From: Blastocatellia bacterium | GTDB taxonomy: Bacteria; Acidobacteriota; Blastocatellia; UBA7656 | DNA length: 64,000 nt | Assembly: GCA_963765495.1 (NCBI GenBank) | Contig: CAVXWP010000014.1 | Span: 54,952-118,951 of the forward strand | Direction of reading: 5' to 3' | Shown here: one piece after another, positions 4,064 through 58,756 of the stretch | Position numbering within the stretch: the first letter of the stretch is position 1 | Layout of the letters: each line of letters begins with the position of its first letter | Notes under the pieces: model-generated | What the model saw: the letters and a program-made list of their open reading frames with translations, nothing else | What the model was told of the DNA's origin: nothing | Databases searched by the model: none | Translations under genes and position numbers: made by a program

Positions 4064-4440
4064 TCAGTGGTCAGTGGTCAGCGCGAATCAGATCAGCAAT
4101 TCCCGGTCAGGCTGTAAGTTGATGAAATCAAAAGAGGAAGCGAAAAAGATAATTGCGAAAGTAAATTCTGTTGTACCAACAGTTATAGCAAAATCGGATA
4201 GATGTAATCGGTGTTTTGCGCTAAGTGCTGTGATTGCCTTAATTACAACGCAATTTCACGATTTCTAATCTCCTTTGTTCGCTTCAATTCCGGTCTAACC
4301 GGGAATCGCTGGAAACAGATCCGCGTAAATCCGTCGCATCCGTCGCATCCGGGGCCTATTCCCATTTACCAATCTGGGGATTCCGGTTTAATCAGAATCT
4401 TTACTCGACTCGCCACTGACCACTGACCACTGCTCACTGC
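4064..4440. repeat. Inverted pair of CAGTGGT heptamer arrays flanking an intergenic cassette
   Basis: TCAGTGGTCAGTGGTCAG at 4064 and CCACTGACCACTGACCACTG at 4413. Confidence 0.7.
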
Positions 4441-47471: not shown

Positions 47472-48497
47472 ATGAAAATTGCCAAAAAGGTAAAAAGACA
47501 CTATCGCGAGTTTGAATTTCTAGCCAAGGGTCTTCTTTCAACAGATCATCCTATACTCGTTCACCTCATCCCGATGCGACGTTGCAATCTTTCCTGCACC
47601 TATTGCAACGAGTTCGATGATTTTTCGAAGCCGGTTGCTTTGGAGGAGATGTTCCGGCGAGTAGACAAGCTGGCCGAGCTTGGCACGACAGCCATCACGA
47701 TCAGCGGCGGCGAGCCTCTGCTGCACCCGGACCTTGAAAAGATAATTACCCGCATCAGAAAGCATGGAATCCTGACCGGGCTTATCTCAAACGGCTATTT
47801 GATGACGCGCGAGCGCATAGGCCGTCTCAATAAGGCCGGGCTCGAATACCTGCAGATCAGCATAGATAATGTTCAGCCTGATGATGTATCAAAGAAGAGC
47901 CTCAAGGTGCTTGACAAGAAGCTCGTCTGGCTTGCCGAGCTTGCCGAGTTCAATGTCAACATCAATTCCGTTATCGGCGGTGGGATCAAGACTCCCGAAG
48001 ACGCGCTCGTAATAGGGCGAAGGGCAGTCGAACTGGGATTTTCCACATCGCTTGGAGTCATTCACGACGGACTCGGCACGCTTAAACCACTAAAGGGTAT
48101 CGAGCGGGAAGTCTACGTCAAGATGAAAGACCTGGGCAAAAAGAGCTACGCCCGGATGAATCAGTTTCAGCAAAATCTGGTAGACGGCAAGCCCAATGAA
48201 TGGCGTTGCCGGTCCGGCGCTCGTTATCTTTATGTTTGCGAAGAGGGGCTGGTGCATTATTGTTCGCAGCAGCGCGGATACCCGGCGATACCTCTTGCAG
48301 AGTACACAAAAGAGCATATCCGCAAAGAGTATCTGACAAAGAAAGCCTGCGCGGATTATTGCACGGTTGCCTGCGTAAATCAGGTGGCGATGTTTGACAA
48401 CTGGCGCGACCCGCAGACGCTGGGGGTAAAAGGCGCGGTGCGGCGCGAAGCCGTGCAGGCCATACAGCAGTTGTACCAGATCGAACAGACTGAATAG
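47472..48497 (+). CDS. Radical SAM protein with a C-terminal Cys-rich (SPASM/twitch-like) domain; HpnH-like
   Basis: [23 protein letters not shown]...YCS...CADYCTVAC. Confidence 0.85.
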
Positions 48498-48638
48498 GAA
48501 TTTTAAATGGACCAAGCCGCAAGAAGCGTCAGGCGTCGATTTTCCGCCGGGCGGGCGGCAACGGAGTTATACATCAGATTCAGCGAAGATGAAGCGAGGT
48601 CTTTATGAGCTTCGCCGTAGACTAGGAGATAAGAAATT

Positions 48639-50765
48639 ATGCACAAGCCAATAAAGTATGTTGAAAAAGGATTGACCTTGGCCGCTCGCGGCTCCTGGGC
48701 CCTGTTCGAGAGATTCAATCGCATCAAACAGAATCCCTCCTTCACTCCTGCCTGGAGCGATAAGCCTCTCTTGAAATCCTATCAGAAGGTCAAGCCTCCT
48801 CTCGGCTGGCCTCGCACTACCGATTCCCTCTGCCCTCGCTGCGTTCCCGAAATCCGCCAGCAGGTCCTCGACGGCATTCTTCCCGTCGATATCCTCAAAA
48901 ATGAACGCATCGGCGAAATCAAGGCCCAGATCATCGAACGCGACGGCAATATCCTCATGGTCAAGGATTGCCCTAAACACGGCCACTTCGAAGACATCAT
49001 GGCTATCGACGCCGATTTCTTCAAACACCTTGAACAGGTCTTTCCTGGCTCTGACATCCGCGCTCACAACGACGAGACCCTTCACGATCACGGCTCTTCT
49101 ACCATAAAATACGGGCGCGGCTCTGTCCTTACGATCGACCTCACAAACCGCTGCAACATGATGTGCGACCCCTGTTTTATGGATGCCAATCAGGTCGGCT
49201 TTGTTCACGAACTCACCTGGGATGACATCAAGACCATGCTCGACAACGCGATTTCCATCAAGCCTCGCCGCCAGTTGAGCGTTCAGTTTTCGGGCGGGGA
49301 GCCAACGCTTTCGCCCTACTTTTTGGATGCCGTCAGGTATTCACGCAAGGTTGGCTACAACAGCGTGCAGGCGGCTACAAACGGGATAGAGTTTGCAAAG
49401 AGCGCCGAGTTTGCGCGTCAAGCGGCAGAAGCGGGGCTGAGATATGCGTATCTGCAATTCGATGGGATCGGCAACGCCGCAAACGAGCACAGAAAAGTGG
49501 GGAACCTCTTTGATGTGAAGTTGCGGGCAATCGAGAACCTCCACAGCGCGGGAGTGGAGATCGTGCCAGTGACAACGATCATAAACGGGATAAACAACGA
49601 GCAGGTGGGGCGGATAATCCAGTTTGCGCTTGATAATCCAAAGAAGACCTCGTTTTTATCGTTCCAGCCGGTGTCGTTCACAGGGCGAGATGAGGCGATC
49701 ACGGACGAGCGGAGGATGGCGCAGAGATACACGCTGTCGCACCTGGCGCACGATGTGAAGAAGCAGACGGGGCTGGGAGAGCCAGTGAGAGACTGGTTTC
49801 CGATCTCGTTTATGAGCACATTTTCAGACTGGTCGGATCTGGTGCACGGGCCAGAGGCGGACTGGGGGCAGTTGAGTTGTGGATGCCATCCGAATTGTGG
49901 AGTAGGTATGGCGATCATGGTGGACAAGGAGACGAAGGAGTCGGTGCCAGTGACGGCGTTTTTGGACGGGGAGCAGTTGGCGAAGGATGTGATGAAGGTC
50001 AACGATGCTGGGAGAGGGAAGTGGCTGTCGATAGTGGGGATGGCCCTGGCCTTGATGAAGAACTACGACCCGTACCAGTCGCCGACGCATTTCAAGTTAA
50101 AGGATTTGTTGACGAAGTTTGACAAGACGTGGGGAGCGACGGGGAAGAATTATGGGAAGGTTTCAGGAGACCGGACGAAGGAAGACATAGAGAAGAGGAG
50201 AGCAGACAGGTGGAACTTCCTGTTCATAGCGGGGATGTGGTTTCAGGATTTGTTCAACTATGATTTTCGGCGGACGGAGAGGTGCATAATCCCGTATGCG
50301 ACGCAGGAAGGGGAGATAAGTTTCTGCGCATACAACACGGGGATAGGGTGGAGGAACATAGTAGAGAAGATGCACATGACGGCGAGTTTGACGAAGTGGT
50401 ATGAGGAGTACGGGAGGCACGAGATATTTGCGGGAGGGAGAGCAGTAGAGTTAAACAGTGTAGAGCACAATCTGGTGTTGAAGGAAGAGATAATCACGAG
50501 GGAAGTGCAACACGACCTGGACGAGTTAGGGATAGCGAAGACGGCGAGGGAAGAGAAGCAGAGGGCGAGGGCAGCGAAGTTGAGCGAAGCGGAGAACTTG
50601 AGGATGGCGAAGTTGTACCGGCAGCACGTATTGAAAGAGAGCGGGGAGCCGGAGGCGAAGTTGGTACAGTTGGGAGTAGGGCCGAAGGTGGAAGGGAAGC
50701 TGGTGCAGATGGGAAGCAAGGGGAAGGGGCAGGCGCAGGAGGAGAGAGCCGGTTTTGGCGACTAG
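48639..50765 (+). CDS. Tes/GDGT-MAS (MJ0619)-like radical SAM protein
   Basis: SLCPRC...CPKHG, DLTNRCNMMCDPCF, QFSGGEPT, YLQFDG, FQPVSFTGR, HPNCG, FQD.FNYD..RTERC..PY...SFCAYN. Confidence 0.85.
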   Translation: MHKPIKYVEKGLTLAARGSWALFERFNRIKQNPSFTPAWSDKPLLKSYQKVKPPLGWPRTTDSLCPRCVPEIRQQVLDGILPVDILKNERIGEIKAQIIERDGNILMVKDCPKHGHFEDIMAIDADFFKHLEQVFPGSDIRAHNDETLHDHGSSTIKYGRGSVLTIDLTNRCNMMCDPCFMDANQVGFVHELTWDDIKTMLDNAISIKPRRQLSVQFSGGEPTLSPYFLDAVRYSRKVGYNSVQAATNGIEFAKSAEFARQAAEAGLRYAYLQFDGIGNAANEHRKVGNLFDVKLRAIENLHSAGVEIVPVTTIINGINNEQVGRIIQFALDNPKKTSFLSFQPVSFTGRDEAITDERRMAQRYTLSHLAHDVKKQTGLGEPVRDWFPISFMSTFSDWSDLVHGPEADWGQLSCGCHPNCGVGMAIMVDKETKESVPVTAFLDGEQLAKDVMKVNDAGRGKWLSIVGMALALMKNYDPYQSPTHFKLKDLLTKFDKTWGATGKNYGKVSGDRTKEDIEKRRADRWNFLFIAGMWFQDLFNYDFRRTERCIIPYATQEGEISFCAYNTGIGWRNIVEKMHMTASLTKWYEEYGRHEIFAGGRAVELNSVEHNLVLKEEIITREVQHDLDELGIAKTAREEKQRARAAKLSEAENLRMAKLYRQHVLKESGEPEAKLVQLGVGPKVEGKLVQMGSKGKGQAQEERAGFGD

Positions 50766-50790: not shown

Positions 50791-50824
50791 AGAGGCCGTC
50801 GGGCGTGAGTCCGGCGGCCTTTTT
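50791..50824 (+). terminator. Rho-independent terminator
   Basis: AGGCCGTCGGGC-GTGA-GTCCGGCGGCCT followed by TTTT. Confidence 0.8.
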
Positions 50825-50885
50825 ACGAGTGGGCAAAACAGGCTCAACTTGCAGGAGAAAGCCGCAATGCGAGAAGATTATTTTC

Positions 50886-51233
50886 ATGCGGAAGTCTGGG
50901 CATTGCGAACTTTGCGATAGAGAGGTTGAAAAAGTCACAAAACATCATCTCATCCCACGGACGAGGCACAAGAACAAAAAGAACAAGAAGAATTTTGATC
51001 GTTCTGAGATTCACGAGCGCGTAATCTGGATTTGCGGTCCCTGCCACCGAAATATTCACGACGTGCTTACAGAAAAAGAACTCGAATATGATTACAACAC
51101 AAAGGAGAAGCTGTTGGCTCACTCGGCGGTAGCGCGATTTACTGAGTGGGTCAGAAAGAGGCCCGATCAAAGTGTGCGGTTTCGCGGTTGGAGAGAGAGA
51201 AAGAGAAGGCAAGCCGTCGAGTTTAGGAAGTAA
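50886..51233 (+). CDS. Small HNH-like nuclease (YisB-like)
   Basis: CELCDR...TKHHLIP...CGPCHRNIH. Confidence 0.8.
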   Translation: MRKSGHCELCDREVEKVTKHHLIPRTRHKNKKNKKNFDRSEIHERVIWICGPCHRNIHDVLTEKELEYDYNTKEKLLAHSAVARFTEWVRKRPDQSVRFRGWRERKRRQAVEFRK

Positions 51234-51285: not shown

Positions 51286-52761
51286 ATGAGCGAGAAACCC
51301 AGAGAGGCAAAGACATTAAAGAACGCGGGAAACTGGAAACATCTGGCCAGATGGAACGGCCTTGGGTATTACGAACTCAGGACCGAAGATACGCGGGATG
51401 TCCCGGTGCGGCTCTTTCTTACTCCGAAGCTGCTCAAGGAAGCCGAAGATATTCTCTATCGCCAGATAGTCAACGCGACCCGGTTCCCCGGAGTCAGACT
51501 GGTCGTAATCACGCCCGACACGCACTACGGCTATGGAGTCCCTGTCGGTTGTGTTTTGCTGACCGATGCCGATTCGGGCGCGGTGGCGATGGGGCCGGTC
51601 GGCTACGATATTGGATGTGGGATGGTCAGCGCGCGCTCAAGTGTGTCGGCCGAACGGGCTACGCCGGAAAAAAAGCTGGAATTCAATCGCGCCGTGATGG
51701 AAAGAGTAGACATGGGCGCGGGTGGCAAGAGTATCAAGCTCGGCAATGTGGATGAGCGCGAGTTCATGAATCTTGTTCACGGCGGGGCGGAATACTACGT
51801 CGAAAAATATGGAGCCACTTTTGATCGCAGCAGAGCCGAGCGCCATCGCATGCCGGTAGACTCAGACTGGCAGGTGCCCTGGGGCGGCAAAGGTCGGCCC
51901 GAGCGCGGCAAAGCGCAACTGGGGTCGCTCGGCGGCGGCAATCACTTTATAGAACTTCAAAGAGCCGAAGAGACCGGGACCCTGTTCGTACAGGCTCACA
52001 CGGGTTCTCGCGGCTGGGGGCACGGGCTGGCGACAAACTATTTCGAGATGGCCAGAGCCGAAAAGCCCAGCGTGATCACCGACATAGACCTCGGCTATTT
52101 CACACCCGACTCCGCGCATTACAGGGATTACCTAAACGCCGTGGCCGCGGGCGGAAACTTTGCCATCCTCAACCGTCTTATACTCTTCGAGCAGGTAGCC
52201 GAAGCCTTCGAATCCGTATTTGGCGGCGAACTGGAATTGATCTATGAGATCAGCCATAACCTTGTTCAGAAGGAATGGCATCCCGAATTTGGAGATGTAT
52301 GGGTCCATCGCAAGGGCGCGACCCGCGCTTTTCCCGCAGAGCATCCTGCGCTTAAAGATACGCTCTGGGAAGAGACGGGCCATCCCGTATTGATTCCCGG
52401 GTCGAATAAGGATTGGAGCTATATCCTGCGCCCGGCTGCCGGAGCCGTCAACAGCGGCTACTCGGTCAATCACGGCGCTGGTCGGCGTATGTCGAGGGGC
52501 GAGGCCAATCGCAGCCTGAATCAGCGCGAAATTGATAAAGAATATTCAGATGCCGGAATCCTGGTCAATATGGACGGTCGCGTGCCACTTGATGAAGCGG
52601 CTCCCTGCTACAAGCCATCAAAGGAAGTGATTGATGCCGTGGTCGGGGCAGGGCTTGCGACTATCGAATACACCTTATGGCCGCTTGCTTCGCTCAAGGG
52701 GACCGATGGGTCGCGAGGCAGGCGAAAGAAGTCAAATAAACAATCGGGTCAGCATTATTGA
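51286..52761 (+). CDS. rtcB: RtcB family RNA ligase
   Basis: PDTH.GYG.PVG, DIGCG, GGGNHFIE, HTGSRG, SHN, HRKGAT, HGAGR, DEA..CYK. Confidence 0.92.
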   Translation: MSEKPREAKTLKNAGNWKHLARWNGLGYYELRTEDTRDVPVRLFLTPKLLKEAEDILYRQIVNATRFPGVRLVVITPDTHYGYGVPVGCVLLTDADSGAVAMGPVGYDIGCGMVSARSSVSAERATPEKKLEFNRAVMERVDMGAGGKSIKLGNVDEREFMNLVHGGAEYYVEKYGATFDRSRAERHRMPVDSDWQVPWGGKGRPERGKAQLGSLGGGNHFIELQRAEETGTLFVQAHTGSRGWGHGLATNYFEMARAEKPSVITDIDLGYFTPDSAHYRDYLNAVAAGGNFAILNRLILFEQVAEAFESVFGGELELIYEISHNLVQKEWHPEFGDVWVHRKGATRAFPAEHPALKDTLWEETGHPVLIPGSNKDWSYILRPAAGAVNSGYSVNHGAGRRMSRGEANRSLNQREIDKEYSDAGILVNMDGRVPLDEAAPCYKPSKEVIDAVVGAGLATIEYTLWPLASLKGTDGSRGRRKKSNKQSGQHY

Positions 52762-55226: not shown

Positions 55227-55302
55227 GCCAGCGTAGCTCAGTTGGTAGAGCATCGGTTTCGTAAACCGGAGGTCAGGGGTTCGAGTCCCCTCGCTGGCTC
55301 CA
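55227..55302 (+). tRNA. tRNA-Thr (anticodon CGT) with encoded CCA
   Basis: Acceptor GCCAGCG/CGCTGGC, D arm GCTC/GAGC, anticodon loop TTCGTAA, T arm AGGGG-TTCGAGT-CCCCT. Confidence 0.97.
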
Positions 55303-55339
55303 CCGGAGGTCAGGGGTTCGAGTCCCCTCGCTGGCTCCA
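55266..55339 (+). repeat. Exact tandem duplication of the 37-bp tRNA 3' end (att core)
   Basis: CCGGAGGTCAGGGGTTCGAGTCCCCTCGCTGGCTCCA at 55266-55302 and 55303-55339. Confidence 0.95.
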
Positions 55340-55351
55340 TTAGATTCAATA

Positions 55352-57785: not shown

Positions 57786-58063
57786 TGACTTGCTATCTAT
57801 GCAGTAAGGCAATCAAACCGGATGATGTAACGAACATGCATCATCCGGTTTACCGCTCTCAAGGTGGAGTTGCGACCAAGCCAACCCATCAAGGGTGTCA
57901 TATTGCCTACCATTCAGAGCAAGGCGATTTTCGAGCATTCGGCCGCATGGGTGGACAAATGAGCGCCACTACAAAGCGATGGTCATTCAATCTCAAGAAT
58001 GTAAAAGACCATCCGGCCTATGAACTGAGCAGACAATTTTATTTAGCGCACTACGCGCACTAA
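57785..58063 (+). CDS. Small HNH-like protein
   Basis: CYLC...MHHP..RSQGG...H..CH..YH. Confidence 0.65.
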   Translation: MTCYLCSKAIKPDDVTNMHHPVYRSQGGVATKPTHQGCHIAYHSEQGDFRAFGRMGGQMSATTKRWSFNLKNVKDHPAYELSRQFYLAHYAH

Positions 58064-58073
58064 TGGAGGATGC

Positions 58074-58352
58074 ATGAGCGAAGCAAGATTTTCACTTGGC
58101 AGGATGGTAGCAACACCGGGCGCACTGGAAGCACTCGCACAGACCGGCCAGGACGCATTTGAATTTATCCGCAGACATCAGCAAGGGGATTGGGGTTGCT
58201 TGTGCGATGAAGACAAGCAAGAAAACGAATTTTCAGTTGATAAGGATTTGCGGATTTTCTCAGCATACCTACTCAAAGACGAAACCAAAATTTGGGTAAT
58301 CACTGAATCGGATCGAAGCGCAACGACTGTGCTTTTACCCAGTGAATACTGA
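58074..58352 (+). CDS. Conserved small plasmid/ICE-associated protein
   Basis: FSLG..VATPGA...RH..GDWG...IWVITE.DRS.TTVLLPSEY; GGAGG RBS. Confidence 0.8.
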   Translation: MSEARFSLGRMVATPGALEALAQTGQDAFEFIRRHQQGDWGCLCDEDKQENEFSVDKDLRIFSAYLLKDETKIWVITESDRSATTVLLPSEY

Positions 58353-58399
58353 CCAGACCGGGGCAAGCTCGACTTGCCCCACACTCAGGAGATAAGACC

Positions 58400-58756
58400 A
58401 TGATTCATCAGATACCCGCACAAATCGAATCAAAGTGCCAAGAGCTAATCACCGACAGCGAAGACCTCGCGCAAGTTCGAGAGCAGATCAAAGATGCAGA
58501 GCTTGAGGCAATCTGCGAAACGGCCGACGCTCGCAACGATGAAGGAAAGGCGCTTTACACGAACGATAAAACACGCGAACGCGCAGCCCGGCAGAGCTTG
58601 AGAGCAGATACACAGTACACACGCGACAGAGAAACCGCCCGAATACTTGAGCGCCGCATTGCCTTGCTCAATGCTGAGATTGAAAGGCTACGCCGTGAAC
58701 TCAGGATTGCGATGATTGATTATGAGCGCGCCGAGTTAGGACAGCGCGCCGCATAG
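58400..58756 (+). CDS. Coiled-coil phage-like hypothetical protein
   Basis: AGGAG RBS; heptad-rich. Confidence 0.65.
   Translation: MIHQIPAQIESKCQELITDSEDLAQVREQIKDAELEAICETADARNDEGKALYTNDKTRERAARQSLRADTQYTRDRETARILERRIALLNAEIERLRRELRIAMIDYERAELGQRAA

What the first reader, a model, noticed from the sequence alone, without database searches (positions are those of the whole stretch)
48680..50750. Near-absolute pyrimidine-to-purine switch of synonymous codons inside the Tes-like gene
Seen (hand count of four-fold degenerate third positions): 48720-49079 has 51 of 51 ending in C/T (76 of 80 up to 49271), whereas 50280 to about 50745 has 51 of 51 ending in A/G. The change occurs over about 49280-49500. 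Other amino acids shift with it: Arg CGC to AGG/AGA, Ile ATC to mostly ATA, Ser TCC/TCT to AGT/AGC, Leu CTC to TTG/CTG. The bias starts about 15 codons after the ATG and stops about 5 codons before the TAG; neighbouring genes look unbiased by eye. Each strand is thus purine-rich when read 5'->3' away from a centre near 49.35 kb, while the protein motifs stay intact. Inference, alternatives: (a) a local bidirectional strand-asymmetric mutational process, such as recurrent break resection and resynthesis or a local priming site; (b) selection on the mRNA for locally unstructured halves or long-range Y:R pairing; (c) selection for R-loop or triplex behaviour; (d) import from a donor genome with such blocks. 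I know of no named feature class for this.
Basis: partly seen in the sequence, partly recalled or inferred. Interest (0 to 1): 0.88.

Follow-up and report, generated by a model that had tools for sequence, protein, structure and literature searches.

The report
Purine-pyrimidine switch marks converting gene copies
The abrupt switch from pyrimidine-ending to purine-ending codons in this lipid-synthase-like gene is real, and it recurs in the genes this bacterium keeps as near-identical copies (including the two EF-Tu genes), which suggests an undescribed strand-biased form of gene conversion.

Summary
Fourfold sites are 51/51 Y in 48720-49079, 76/80 Y to 49271, and 51/51 R in 50280-50745.

It is not specific to this locus. 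The gene is one of two CDS-bounded, 98.75% identical copies (C14, C9). Only 4 of 4824 ORFs have both an all-Y and an all-R window, and they form two paralogue pairs.

Across 64 repeat families the 5'-Y to R-3' polarity is strongly enriched: 18 families have d>0.2 and 2 have d<-0.2, against 3% each way in 4633 unique ORFs. Polar families include IS4, IS110 and IS5 transposases, C25-peptidase proteins and tufA/tufB.

Twenty-nine orthologues in relatives are unbiased.

Across Acidobacteriota, near-identical tuf pairs are purine-enriched (fR 0.42-0.87, 17 genomes). Diverged pairs and single copies are not (0.22-0.45, 12 genomes), nor are flanking genes or E. coli tuf.

GC content is unchanged, and amino-acid replacements follow the bias.

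Best reading: strand-asymmetric purine/pyrimidine-biased interlocus gene conversion. The link to conversion is shown only by association, and the biochemistry is inferred. Six literature searches found no description of it.

The parts
48602..50764 (.). Homology block shared with the second copy at G000:C9:864574-866733 (98.75% over 2165 bp). Similarity starts at about the ribosome-binding site and ATG and ends at the stop codon (TAG here, TAA in C9). The flanks are unrelated.
   Evidence: blastn; MAFFT
48639..50765 (+). Tes-like radical-SAM gene, 708 aa. Pfam: Radical_SAM plus Zn_ribbon_HMPTM. NCBIfam: NF045702 'tetraether lipid synthase Tes', 318.9 bits, below the 450-bit cut-off.
48639..48719 (+). 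5' margin without the extreme bias (fourfold sites 8 Y / 3 R), although identical between the two copies.
48720..49271 (+). Pyrimidine block: fourfold sites 76 Y / 4 R (51/51 Y to 49079). Arg is all CGC.
49272..49539 (+). Transition zone (15 Y / 26 R). The 17 differences between the two copies, all at third codon positions (12 transitions, 5 transversions), lie in 49136-49763, around this zone.
49540..50745 (+). Purine block: fourfold sites 8 Y / 145 R (51/51 R from 50280). Arg is AGR in 17 of 24 codons. From 49764 onward it is 100% identical to the C9 copy.
50746..50762 (+). 3' margin of about 5 codons without purine bias (3 Y / 0 R). A similar pyrimidine-ending margin is seen at the 3' end of purine-rich tuf genes.
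48603..49208 (-). Antisense ORF of 201 aa. It is an automatic by-product: NNY sense codons give antisense codons starting with a purine, which cannot be stop codons. I do not take it as a gene.
   Evidence: direct reasoning from the genetic code
47472..48497 (+). Upstream radical-SAM gene (341 aa), single copy and unbiased (fR 0.45, d +0.11). It serves as an internal control. A homologue lies beside the Tes-like gene in 23 of 29 relatives' loci.
51286..52761 (+). Downstream RtcB-family gene, single copy and unbiased (fR 0.44, d -0.03). It serves as an internal control.

Best explanation
The Y-to-R switch is the footprint of long-running interlocus gene conversion (concerted evolution) between the two copies of this gene. 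In this lineage conversion appears to be biased by base class and by strand.

The proposed mechanism is as follows. When a single strand of one copy pairs with the complementary strand of the other copy, a transversion difference produces either a purine:purine or a pyrimidine:pyrimidine mismatch, depending on which strand was transferred. If the two mismatch classes are handled differently (corrected, tolerated, or used to abort the heteroduplex), one allele class spreads to both copies and the other is purged. The favoured class reverses with the identity of the transferred strand.

Over a time comparable to neutral saturation, this drives every freely changeable site to Y where one strand is usually the transferred one and to R where the other is. 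Each strand then reads 5'-Y...R-3', with a sharp boundary between the domains, and the two copies stay nearly identical.

What is shown: the pattern is tied to near-identical repeats and their homology borders, it acts on all codon positions, it is GC-neutral, and it is lineage-specific.

What is inferred: that the cause is a fixation bias in heteroduplex processing, which strand is transferred where, and which enzyme discriminates the mismatch classes.
For: (1) Repeat linkage in this genome.
- The only 4 of 4824 ORFs with both an all-Y and an all-R window are two paralogue pairs.
- Of ORFs at least 80% inside repeats, 40% of 140 have d>0.2 and 3.6% have d<-0.2. For 4633 unique ORFs the figures are 3.1% and 3.0%.
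- After collapsing to 64 families, 47 have d>0 and 17 have d<0 (binomial p=2e-4); 18 have d>0.2 and 2 have d<-0.2.

(2) The families are unrelated in function and mobility: Tes-like rSAM, Peptidase_C25 proteins, EF-Tu, and IS4, IS110 (DEDD), IS5-like and DDE_Tnp_4 transposases.

(3) Borders.
- In C1:311120-314858 the Y block begins at the homology border (311394-311400) in mid-ORF, and the R block ends at the homology border.
- For the Tes-like and tuf pairs, identity is bounded by the ATG and the stop codon with unrelated flanks. This is the situation described for Salmonella tufA/tufB (PMC5485169, section 3 read).

(4) Orthologue control: 29 Tes-like orthologues (65-85% aa identity) have fR 0.37-0.63 and no blocks.

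(5) The tuf probe.
- In G000 both tuf copies have fR 0.67 and d 0.62, while fusA, rpoB, rpoC and ribosomal-protein genes around them have fR 0.37-0.51.
- Across the phylum, 17 genomes with 97-100% identical tuf pairs have fR 0.42-0.87 (median 0.73).
- Six genomes with diverged pairs (69-78% identity) have fR 0.26-0.45.
- Six single-copy genomes in assemblies of at most 10 contigs have fR 0.22-0.43.
- At family level the contrast is 9 against 4 families, Mann-Whitney one-sided p=0.003.
- Flanking genes at 36 loci have mean fR 0.45, sd 0.045.

(6) It is a DNA-level drive, not selection on synonymous sites. In the C25 R block the purine fraction is 0.78/0.58/0.77 at codon positions 1/2/3, against 0.62/0.45/0.51 in the unbiased paralogue. 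Of 303 amino-acid replacements, 162 raise and 36 lower the purine count at positions 1+2. In the Tes-like R block, Arg CGN has become AGR in 17 of 24 codons, against 2% in orthologues.

(7) It is a class swap, not a base-specific lesion. GC at fourfold sites is 0.56-0.77 in the blocks against 0.66 in the background.

(8) The principle that a transversion gives G/A or C/T depending on which strands pair, and that mismatch repair treats mismatches unequally, is stated for tuf conversion in PMC5485169 (section 8 read).

(9) Concerted evolution of tuf in Acidobacteria is on record (PMC6053082, passages read).
Against: - No conversion event was observed. The link is by association only.
- E. coli tufA, the textbook converting pair, shows no effect (fR 0.35, d 0.01; fusA 0.37). 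A lineage-specific factor is therefore needed, and I did not find one. G000 has MutS and MutL. NucS was not found in G000 (the only genome searched for it). MutY was not found above cut-off in G000, G015 or G142 but is present in the strong-effect genomes G141, G106 and G119. A second MutS_I protein was found in G000 but in none of 5 other genomes, 3 of which (G141, G106, G119) have the effect.
- The E. coli repair hierarchy quoted in PMC5485169 (G/A and C/T both poor; A/A intermediate; T/T low) gives only a modest R:R against Y:Y difference.
- Uniform initiation, as inferred for Salmonella tuf (abstract of PMC5485169), would by my own derivation predict a linear gradient. The observed profile is step-like.
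- Differences between copies sit in the middle of the gene, and the ends are 100% identical.
- Many tuf genes are purine-rich over nearly the whole coding strand (G021 fR 0.96, G130 0.88). That needs one-sided initiation as an extra assumption.
- G123 has a 99.7% identical tuf pair but fR 0.43; G142 has 0.53.
- 17 of 64 repeat families have d<0 and many are near 0.
- The sign of the polarity can be obtained from two opposite sets of assumptions, so the sign is not a test.
Confidence: 0.6

Rival explanations
1. Conversion-associated mutagenesis rather than biased fixation. Ectopic repair between copies uses error-prone synthesis, or exposes one strand as damaged single-stranded DNA, and this creates transversions with a fixed strand polarity relative to the break. 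Conversion then spreads them.
For: It explains the same repeat linkage, border dependence and action on all codon positions. Strand-coordinated mutation clusters that switch strand at a break are known from yeast and cancers (recalled, not from a call).
Against: - Fourfold GC content is unchanged, whereas known single-strand lesions (depurination, 8-oxoG, deamination) favour particular bases.
- Repair from the sister chromosome would use the same synthesis in unique genes.
- By my rough estimate (not computed in a call), reaching 51/51 or 145/153 against back-mutation needs an error rate per conversion of about 1e-3 or more, given a conversion frequency of once per 1e5-1e6 generations (PMC5485169, section 3).
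- The terminal blocks are 100% identical between copies, which is not expected if each event adds new errors.
Confidence: 0.2
2. A dedicated system that targets repeats for hypermutation (a bacterial analogue of fungal RIP). It senses duplicated DNA and introduces strand-polar transversions as a defence against mobile elements. Essential duplicates such as tuf are collateral targets kept functional by selection.
For: Many affected families are insertion sequences. Proteins drift towards Glu, Gly, Lys and Arg in R blocks. The effect is lineage-specific.
Against: - Copies stay 97-100% identical, so homogenisation is needed anyway.
- All the affected transposase ORFs I looked at are still open.
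- No candidate gene was identified.
- Independent mutation of copies should make them diverge, not converge.
Confidence: 0.07
3. Selection on the transcript or on DNA structure: unstructured halves, long-range Y:R pairing, Rho loading on C-rich 5' RNA, or R-loop or triplex formation. These are the first reader's alternatives (b) and (c).
For: - Each block alone folds more weakly than in any of 28 orthologues: Y block -0.247 kcal/nt against -0.332 (sd 0.029); R block -0.298 against -0.369 (sd 0.025).
- In the full-length MFE fold, 38% of pairs link the first 30% of the RNA to the last 57%, against 5.5-17.6% in the 8 orthologues folded.
Against: - These are automatic consequences of composition.
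- The pattern tracks homology borders in mid-ORF.
- It occurs in unrelated genes with very different expression, only when they are duplicated.
- It spares co-transcribed single-copy neighbours.
- It changes amino acids.
- Several tuf genes have no Y half at all.
- Weak per-site selection cannot plausibly give 51/51.
Confidence: 0.05
4. Import of ready-made skewed sequence from a donor (a cassette, phage or plasmid whose genes carry such blocks), or a chimeric or erroneous assembly.
For: The copies are exactly gene-sized. The assembly contains low-complexity stretches elsewhere, including a poly(A) tract of about 500 nt.
Against: - The protein groups with same-family orthologues at 79-85% identity.
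- tufA and tufB sit in their canonical contexts.
- Closed single-contig genomes show the tuf effect (G106, G119, G139, G141).
- Logan contigs of run X1 reproduce both blocks and bridge the switch. Run X2, from another study, holds 90-95% identical contigs over both blocks.
Confidence: 0.03

Closest known systems
Concerted evolution of tufA/tufB by RecA-dependent gene conversion (Salmonella model: PMC5485169, abstract and sections 3 and 8 read; prokaryote survey including Acidobacteria: PMC6053082, passages read)
   Same: Two copies at different loci, with identity confined to the coding sequence and unrelated flanks. The paralogues are far more alike than orthologues are. The type of mismatch in the heteroduplex depends on which strands pair.
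   Different: No purine/pyrimidine polarisation is described there ('purine' occurs 0 times in PMC6053082). E. coli tufA shows none. Here conversion is accompanied by near-complete recoding of synonymous sites.
GC-biased gene conversion (gBGC; recalled from general knowledge, papers seen only in the listings)
   Same: A fixation bias arising from unequal treatment of heteroduplex mismatches. It mimics selection and can override codon preference.
   Different: gBGC favours G/C over A/T and is symmetric between strands. Here GC content is unchanged, the favoured class is purine or pyrimidine, and it reverses between strands and domains. It acts between paralogues in one genome, not between alleles.
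Repeat-induced point mutation (RIP) of fungi (recalled)
   Same: Sequence change restricted to duplicated DNA.
   Different: RIP makes C-to-T transitions, destroys the genes and makes copies diverge. Here the changes are transversions, ORFs stay open and copies stay 97-100% identical.
Strand-coordinated mutation clusters around resected double-strand breaks (recalled)
   Same: Strand polarity that flips at a central point.
   Different: Those are rare somatic clusters of base-specific lesions. Here there is an evolutionary equilibrium at nearly every free site, neutral with respect to GC, and tied to repeats.
Purine loading of coding strands (Szybalski's rule) and replication-associated GC/AT skew (recalled)
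   Same: Local violation of intrastrand parity, with purine-rich coding strands.
   Different: Those are genome-wide, weak (a few per cent) and do not flip inside a gene. Here unique genes have fR 0.48 with no polarity, and GC skew along contigs is at most about 0.1 and noisy.

Membership tests
Interlocus gene conversion / concerted-evolution pair | [quoted passage not shown] | tested here: met
   The two copies are 98.75% identical in DNA and 100% in protein. The best orthologues are 85% identical in protein.
Interlocus gene conversion / concerted-evolution pair | Similarity is confined to the shared coding sequence, with unrelated flanks at two distinct loci. | tested here: met
   MAFFT of the two loci with flanks: identity runs from about the RBS/ATG to the stop codon (TAG against TAA). 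The tuf pair shows the same.
Interlocus gene conversion / concerted-evolution pair | The duplication is older than the present similarity, meaning both loci exist in other lineages with diverged copies. | tested here: inconclusive
   The C14-type neighbour is present in 23 of 29 relatives' loci and the C9-type neighbour in 2 of 29 (G017, G004). G004 carries two diverged copies. However, the protein tree is a polytomy without two paralogue clades.
Interlocus gene conversion / concerted-evolution pair | Dependence on homologous recombination (RecA), or directly observed conversion tracts. | not testable with these tools
   This needs genetics or time-series genomes.
GC-biased gene conversion | G/C alleles are favoured over A/T, so GC is raised at silent sites of recombining sequence. 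| tested here: not met
   GC at fourfold sites is 0.70 (Y block) and 0.77 (R block) in the Tes-like gene, 0.56/0.64 in C25 and 0.57/0.62 in tuf, against a background of 0.66.
Tetraether lipid synthase Tes (NCBIfam NF045702) | Score above the curated equivalog cut-off, with a radical-SAM core. | tested here: not met
   318.9 bits against a cut-off of 450, covering profile positions 2-483 of 486. Pfam Radical_SAM scores 69 bits, with Zn_ribbon_HMPTM. 'Tes-like' is a fair name, but membership and function are not shown.
Repeat-induced point mutation (RIP-like) | C-to-T/G-to-A transitions in repeats, leading to divergence and inactivation of copies. | tested here: not met
   The shift is between purine and pyrimidine classes with GC preserved. 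The ORFs are intact and copies are 97-100% identical.
Replication- or transcription-associated strand skew | Skew is shared by neighbouring genes on the same strand or in the same operon. | tested here: not met
   fusA, rpoB, rpoC and ribosomal-protein genes around tuf have fR 0.37-0.51. The other 44 ORFs of the window have fR 0.40-0.62.

The most novel reading that the evidence does not exclude
Acidobacteriota harbour an undescribed evolutionary force: a strand-asymmetric, purine-versus-pyrimidine bias of gene conversion between repeated sequences (or an equivalent repeat-linked transversion drive). It deterministically recodes any gene kept in two or more converting copies. It overrides codon preference even in EF-Tu, pushes protein composition towards Glu, Gly, Lys and Arg, and partitions each repeat into sharply bounded homopurine-like and homopyrimidine-like domains. 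Those domain boundaries would record which DNA strand is habitually transferred.
Probability: 0.55. Interest if true: 0.9.

Novelty: new variant of a known kind. Interest (0 to 1): 0.85.

Why it matters
If this reading holds, it is a second kind of biased gene conversion beside gBGC. It would be GC-neutral, strand-polar, and strong enough to drive fourfold sites to 95-100% of one base class and to reshape proteins.

It would matter for several reasons:
- It shows that codon usage and amino-acid composition of duplicated genes, including a universal marker such as EF-Tu, can be set by recombination mechanics rather than by selection or mutation. This affects codon-adaptation indices, dN/dS tests, HGT detection and tuf-based phylogeny in this phylum.
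- The domain pattern would be a natural, cumulative record of which strand invades where. That makes recombination initiation and the mismatch-repair specificity of hard-to-culture soil bacteria testable from sequence alone.
- It offers a simple sequence signature for finding converting paralogues in genomes and MAGs.
- It explains why such genes break short-read assemblies.

For the Tes-like gene itself, it means the odd codon usage says nothing about lipid biosynthesis or regulation.

Tried and rejected
Gene content as the cause.
- NucS was not found in G000 (G000 only).
- MutY was not found above cut-off in G000, G015 or G142. It is present in the strong-effect genomes G141, G106 and G119, near cut-off in G102, and also present in the weak-effect genome G123. 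It does not track the effect.
- A second MutS_I protein is present in G000. None of the 5 other genomes searched has one, and 3 of those (G141, G106, G119) have the effect. It does not track the effect either.

Translational selection. Rejected, because fusA, rpoB, rpoC and ribosomal-protein genes next to tuf are unbiased.

Transposition chemistry. Rejected, because DDE (IS4, IS5-like, DDE_Tnp_4) and DEDD (IS110) elements all show the polarity.

A shared Chi-like motif at the 3' end of R domains. None was seen by eye in 15 families. No statistical motif search was run.

Replication orientation from GC skew. The skew is too weak and noisy to use.

Ancient-paralogue test by tree. The result was an unresolved polytomy.

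Opposite-polarity families. The clearest one (C6:11849-13967, d = -0.28) is a weakly biased, internally repetitive protein in an 87-90% identical pair. It is not a strong counterexample.

mRNA folding. The differences found are consequences of composition and do not discriminate between explanations.

Expression. No RNA holder was listed among the public runs, so nothing can be said about it.

Parts of the gene without Logan contig cover (for example 49713-49754, 50194-50226 and 50490-50504) are not evidence of anything.

Literature. Six full-text searches returned no paper describing purine/pyrimidine polarisation of converting paralogues, IS elements or tuf. Most subscription-journal papers are outside that library. 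Supplementary files were not requested; Supplementary Fig. 7 of PMC6053082 (tuf contexts) may bear on copy numbers and was not seen.

Weaknesses of my counts.
- ORFs are crude stop-to-stop calls chosen greedily.
- The 'repeat' class includes probable contig-end overlaps (C7/C10/C11, C1/C8) with d near 0.
- tuf copy number in fragmented assemblies is uncertain. Single-hit genomes with high fR (G021 0.96, G055 0.87, G034 0.86, G112 0.75) may hold collapsed pairs and were not counted in either class.
- Twelve non-repeat ORFs have d>0.4 and were not examined.
- Genomes are related, so the tests overstate significance.
Full report
**The observation**

The ORF at window 48639..50765 (+) encodes a 708-aa radical-SAM protein. 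Its best NCBIfam match is 'tetraether lipid synthase Tes' at 318.9 bits, below the 450-bit cut-off. Pfam finds Radical_SAM and Zn_ribbon_HMPTM. 'Tes-like' is therefore a fair label and no more.

- 51 Y / 0 R in 48720-49079
- 76 Y / 4 R up to 49271
- 15 Y / 26 R in 49272-49539
- 8 Y / 145 R in 49540-50745
- 0 Y / 51 R in 50280-50745

There is a margin without the extreme bias at each end (8 Y / 3 R and 3 Y / 0 R).

Arg is CGC in 11 of 11 codons in the Y block and AGR in 17 of 24 in the R block. Ile ATA rises to 13 of 21.

The other 44 ORFs of the window have a purine fraction (fR) of 0.40-0.62 and no polarity.

Chance is excluded. The background fR is 0.478 over 1.09 million sites, and only 4 of 4824 ORFs contain both a window of at most 3/40 and a window of at least 37/40 purines.

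**It is not a property of this locus**

The window is G000:C14:54952-118951 in a 7.3-Mb, 17-contig genome. The four extreme ORFs are two paralogue pairs:
- This gene and an identical-protein copy at C9:864575-866708.
- Two Peptidase_C25 surface proteins, C1:311120-314858 and C7:559889-565664.

blastn of 13 kb around the gene finds only the C9 copy, at 98.75% over 2165 bp. Alignment with flanks shows that similarity begins at about the ribosome-binding site and ATG and ends at the stop codon (TAG against TAA), with unrelated flanks. All 17 differences in the CDS are at third positions (12 transitions, 5 transversions) and lie in 49136-49763. The outer 497 bp and 1000 bp are identical.

**Genome-wide test**

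I define d as the purine fraction at fourfold sites in the last third of an ORF minus that in the first third.

| ORF class | n | mean d | d>0.2 | d<-0.2 |
|---|---|---|---|---|
| Outside repeats | 4633 | 0.002 (sd 0.107) | 3.1% | 3.0% |
| At least 80% inside repeats (self-blastn, ≥400 bp, ≥85%) | 140 | 0.184 | 40% | 3.6% |

Collapsing copies into 64 families leaves 47 with d>0 and 17 with d<0 (binomial p=2e-4). Eighteen have d>0.2 and 2 have d<-0.2.

The polar families are unrelated to one another: IS4, IS110 (DEDD), IS5-like and DDE_Tnp_4 transposases, C25 proteins, other large surface proteins, and the two EF-Tu genes.

A Y-then-R profile is unchanged by reverse complementation. The statement is therefore about the duplex: each strand is pyrimidine-rich towards its 5' end and purine-rich towards its 3' end within the repeated segment.

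In C1:311120-314858 the first 91 codons, which lie outside the repeat, are mixed (8-9 purines per 20 sites). The Y run starts at the homology border (311394-311400), and the R run lasts to the other border. The pattern follows homology, not the reading frame's start.

**The tuf genes are the key**

The G000 copies sit in the canonical contexts: one after fusA, one after a tRNA cluster. They are identical from the ATG to the stop codon apart from 10 transitions, and the flanks are unrelated. [quoted passage not shown]

Both copies have fR 0.67 and d 0.62. fusA (0.43), rpoB and rpoC (0.44) and the ribosomal-protein genes around them (0.37-0.51) are ordinary. That excludes translational selection and operon-wide effects.

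**Comparative controls**

(i) Twenty-nine Tes-like orthologues from 28 relatives (65-85% identity) have fR 0.37-0.63 and no blocks. In three relatives (G018, G016, G012) the gene is cut at contig ends, with the outer parts present twice. This suggests two copies with an unassembled shared core. The assembled, diverged parts are unbiased.

(ii) tuf in 41 relatives. Several same-family genomes show the Y-to-R polarity: G006 d 0.55, G009 0.50, G010 0.54, G011 0.56, G015 0.48. Others are purine-rich throughout: G021 fR 0.96, G008 0.87, G034 0.86.

(iii) tuf across the phylum (121 genomes searched, 85 with a hit):

| tuf state | genomes | DNA identity between copies | fR |
|---|---|---|---|
| Near-identical pair | 17 | 97.0-100% | 0.42-0.87 (median 0.73) |
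| Diverged pair (one family) | 6 | 69-78% | 0.26-0.45 |
| Single copy (assemblies of ≤10 contigs) | 6 | n/a | 0.22-0.43 |

By family means the contrast is 9 against 4 families, Mann-Whitney one-sided p=0.003. Related genomes are not independent, so this overstates the significance.

(iv) Genes flanking tuf at 36 loci have fR 0.45, sd 0.045, range 0.30-0.54.

(v) E. coli tufA has fR 0.35 and d 0.01, like its fusA at 0.37.

Taken together, purine enrichment goes with concerted evolution, not with duplication as such, and it is lineage-specific.

Exceptions exist. G123 has a 99.7% identical pair but fR 0.43, and G142 has 0.53.

Two genomes flagged as unpublished (G062, G086) were not used.

**Nature of the pressure**

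It acts on all codon positions where the protein allows it.
- In the C25 R block the purine fraction is 0.78/0.58/0.77 at positions 1/2/3, against 0.62/0.45/0.51 in a third, unbiased paralogue.
- Of 303 replacements, 162 raise and 36 lower the purine count at positions 1+2.
- Composition shifts by +39 Glu, +39 Gly, +13 Met, +12 Lys and +10 Arg, and by -24 Ser, -22 Ala and -21 Leu.

In the more constrained Tes-like protein only position 3, and position 1 through Arg CGR to AGR, move.

GC content at fourfold sites is unchanged: 0.56-0.77 in the blocks against 0.66 in the background. This is therefore a swap of base class, not the footprint of one lesion type.

Differences between copies are mostly transitions (36 of 45 in three pairs), and none lie in the terminal R blocks.

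**Reality of the sequence**

Logan contigs of a soil-metagenome run (X1, possibly the source sample) reproduce both blocks. One 1503-nt contig carries the C9-type upstream flank and the C9-specific variants and runs through the switch to 49630. A run from another study (X2, freshwater sediment) holds 90-95% identical contigs over 48761-49085 and 49556-50152. Its listed differences in the R block are mainly A/G exchanges. Closed single-contig genomes also show the tuf effect.

**Mechanism (inferred)**

The simplest process that gives both near-identity and bias is gene conversion with unequal handling of mismatch classes. A transversion difference yields a purine:purine or a pyrimidine:pyrimidine mismatch according to which strand is transferred. 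[quoted passage not shown]

If one class is corrected or rejected and the other tolerated, one allele class spreads and the other is purged. The favoured class reverses with the transferred strand, which produces two domains of opposite sign on one strand.

Because conversion (about once per 1e5-1e6 generations in Salmonella, same paper) is far more frequent than mutation, the bias can approach 100% on the neutral time scale.

Two further observations fit a picture in which the purine-rich strand is the invading 3' strand whose end must lie inside the homology:
- Purine domains reach the 5' border of tuf without a margin (G021, G130, G102).
- They stop 4-13 fourfold sites short of the 3' border, as in this gene (about 5 codons).

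I rate this refinement, and any role of Chi-like sites or collapsed replication forks, as speculation. No shared motif was seen and replication direction could not be inferred.

**What speaks against this reading, or remains open**

- No conversion event was observed.
- The discriminating factor is unknown. MutS and MutL are present. NucS was not found in G000, the only genome searched for it. MutY absence and a second MutS do not track the effect.
- The E. coli repair hierarchy gives only a modest R:R against Y:Y difference, and E. coli tuf is unaffected.
- By my own derivation, uniform initiation would give a linear gradient rather than the observed step.
- Copy differences are central rather than terminal.
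- Whole-gene purine enrichment in many tuf genes needs one-sided initiation.
- Some identical pairs lack the effect.
- 17 of 64 repeat families have d<0.
- The age of the Tes-like duplication is unresolved. The C14-type neighbour is present in 23 of 29 relatives' loci and the C9-type neighbour in 2 of 29, and the tree is a polytomy.

**Rivals**

Conversion-linked mutagenesis remains possible (0.2). A dedicated repeat-targeted hypermutator is less likely because copies converge and ORFs stay open (0.07). Selection on RNA or DNA structure explains neither the repeat linkage nor the amino-acid drift; the folding differences found are by-products of composition (0.05). Import or artefact is contradicted by phylogeny, context and reads (0.03).

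**Novelty**

Six full-text searches found no description of purine/pyrimidine polarisation in converting paralogues. The prokaryote-wide study of concerted evolution does not contain the word 'purine'.

I file the finding as a new variant of a known kind (biased gene conversion). The pattern itself (sharply bounded, GC-neutral, strand-polar recoding of every converting repeat, EF-Tu included) was not found in the literature searched.

Noticed in passing
G000:C2:435719-436903 and G000:C2:454395-455579 (outside the window): The two EF-Tu genes (tufA after fusA, tufB after a tRNA cluster) differ by 10 transitions. Both carry the same Y-to-R polarity (fR 0.67, d 0.62), while neighbouring translation genes are unbiased.
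   Followed up: yes
G000:C9:32827-33325 and G000:C2:165640-166700 (outside the window): A poly(A) run of about 500 nt and an A/G-only low-complexity stretch of about 1 kb. They look like assembly noise or unusual homopurine DNA. They are unrelated to coding sequence.
   Followed up: no
window 48603-49208 (-): A 201-aa antisense ORF lies over the Y block. It is open only because NNY sense codons cannot give antisense stop codons.
   Followed up: partly
window 4093-4311: A 218-219-bp segment that is 99.5-100% identical to copies on C16 (two) and C2 (two). It is a short dispersed repeat of unknown kind.
   Followed up: no
window 57911-58653: A 743-bp segment that is 88% identical to C13:167897-168640, which lies next to a multi-copy region at a contig end.
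   Followed up: no
window 55253-55350: A 38-bp unit repeated in tandem (C14:110216-110290) that also matches C3:12159-12218.
   Followed up: no
window 50805-51233 and 51286-52761: Directly downstream of the Tes-like gene lie an HNH nuclease-like HlpB homologue (57.9 bits, below the 130-bit cut-off) and an RtcB-family RNA ligase gene.
   Followed up: no
G000:C9:303484 and G000:C15:168455 (outside the window): G000 encodes two proteins with the MutS_I mismatch-binding domain (ORFs of 902 and 845 aa). Five other Acidobacteriota searched have one each. No MutY above cut-off was found in G000, G015 or G142.
   Followed up: partly
L031-L040 (G018, G016, G012): In three relatives the Tes-like gene is cut at contig ends, with its outer parts present twice. 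This suggests two copies with an unassembled identical core. Likewise, 19 of 41 relatives have no assembled tuf at E<=1e-100.
   Followed up: partly
G000:C7:408066-414579 (outside the window): A third C25-peptidase paralogue shares only a 1.23-kb block (92-93% identity) with the other two. It carries the Y run there, while its C-terminal half is unbiased and about 49% identical in protein to the purine-recoded copies.
   Followed up: yes
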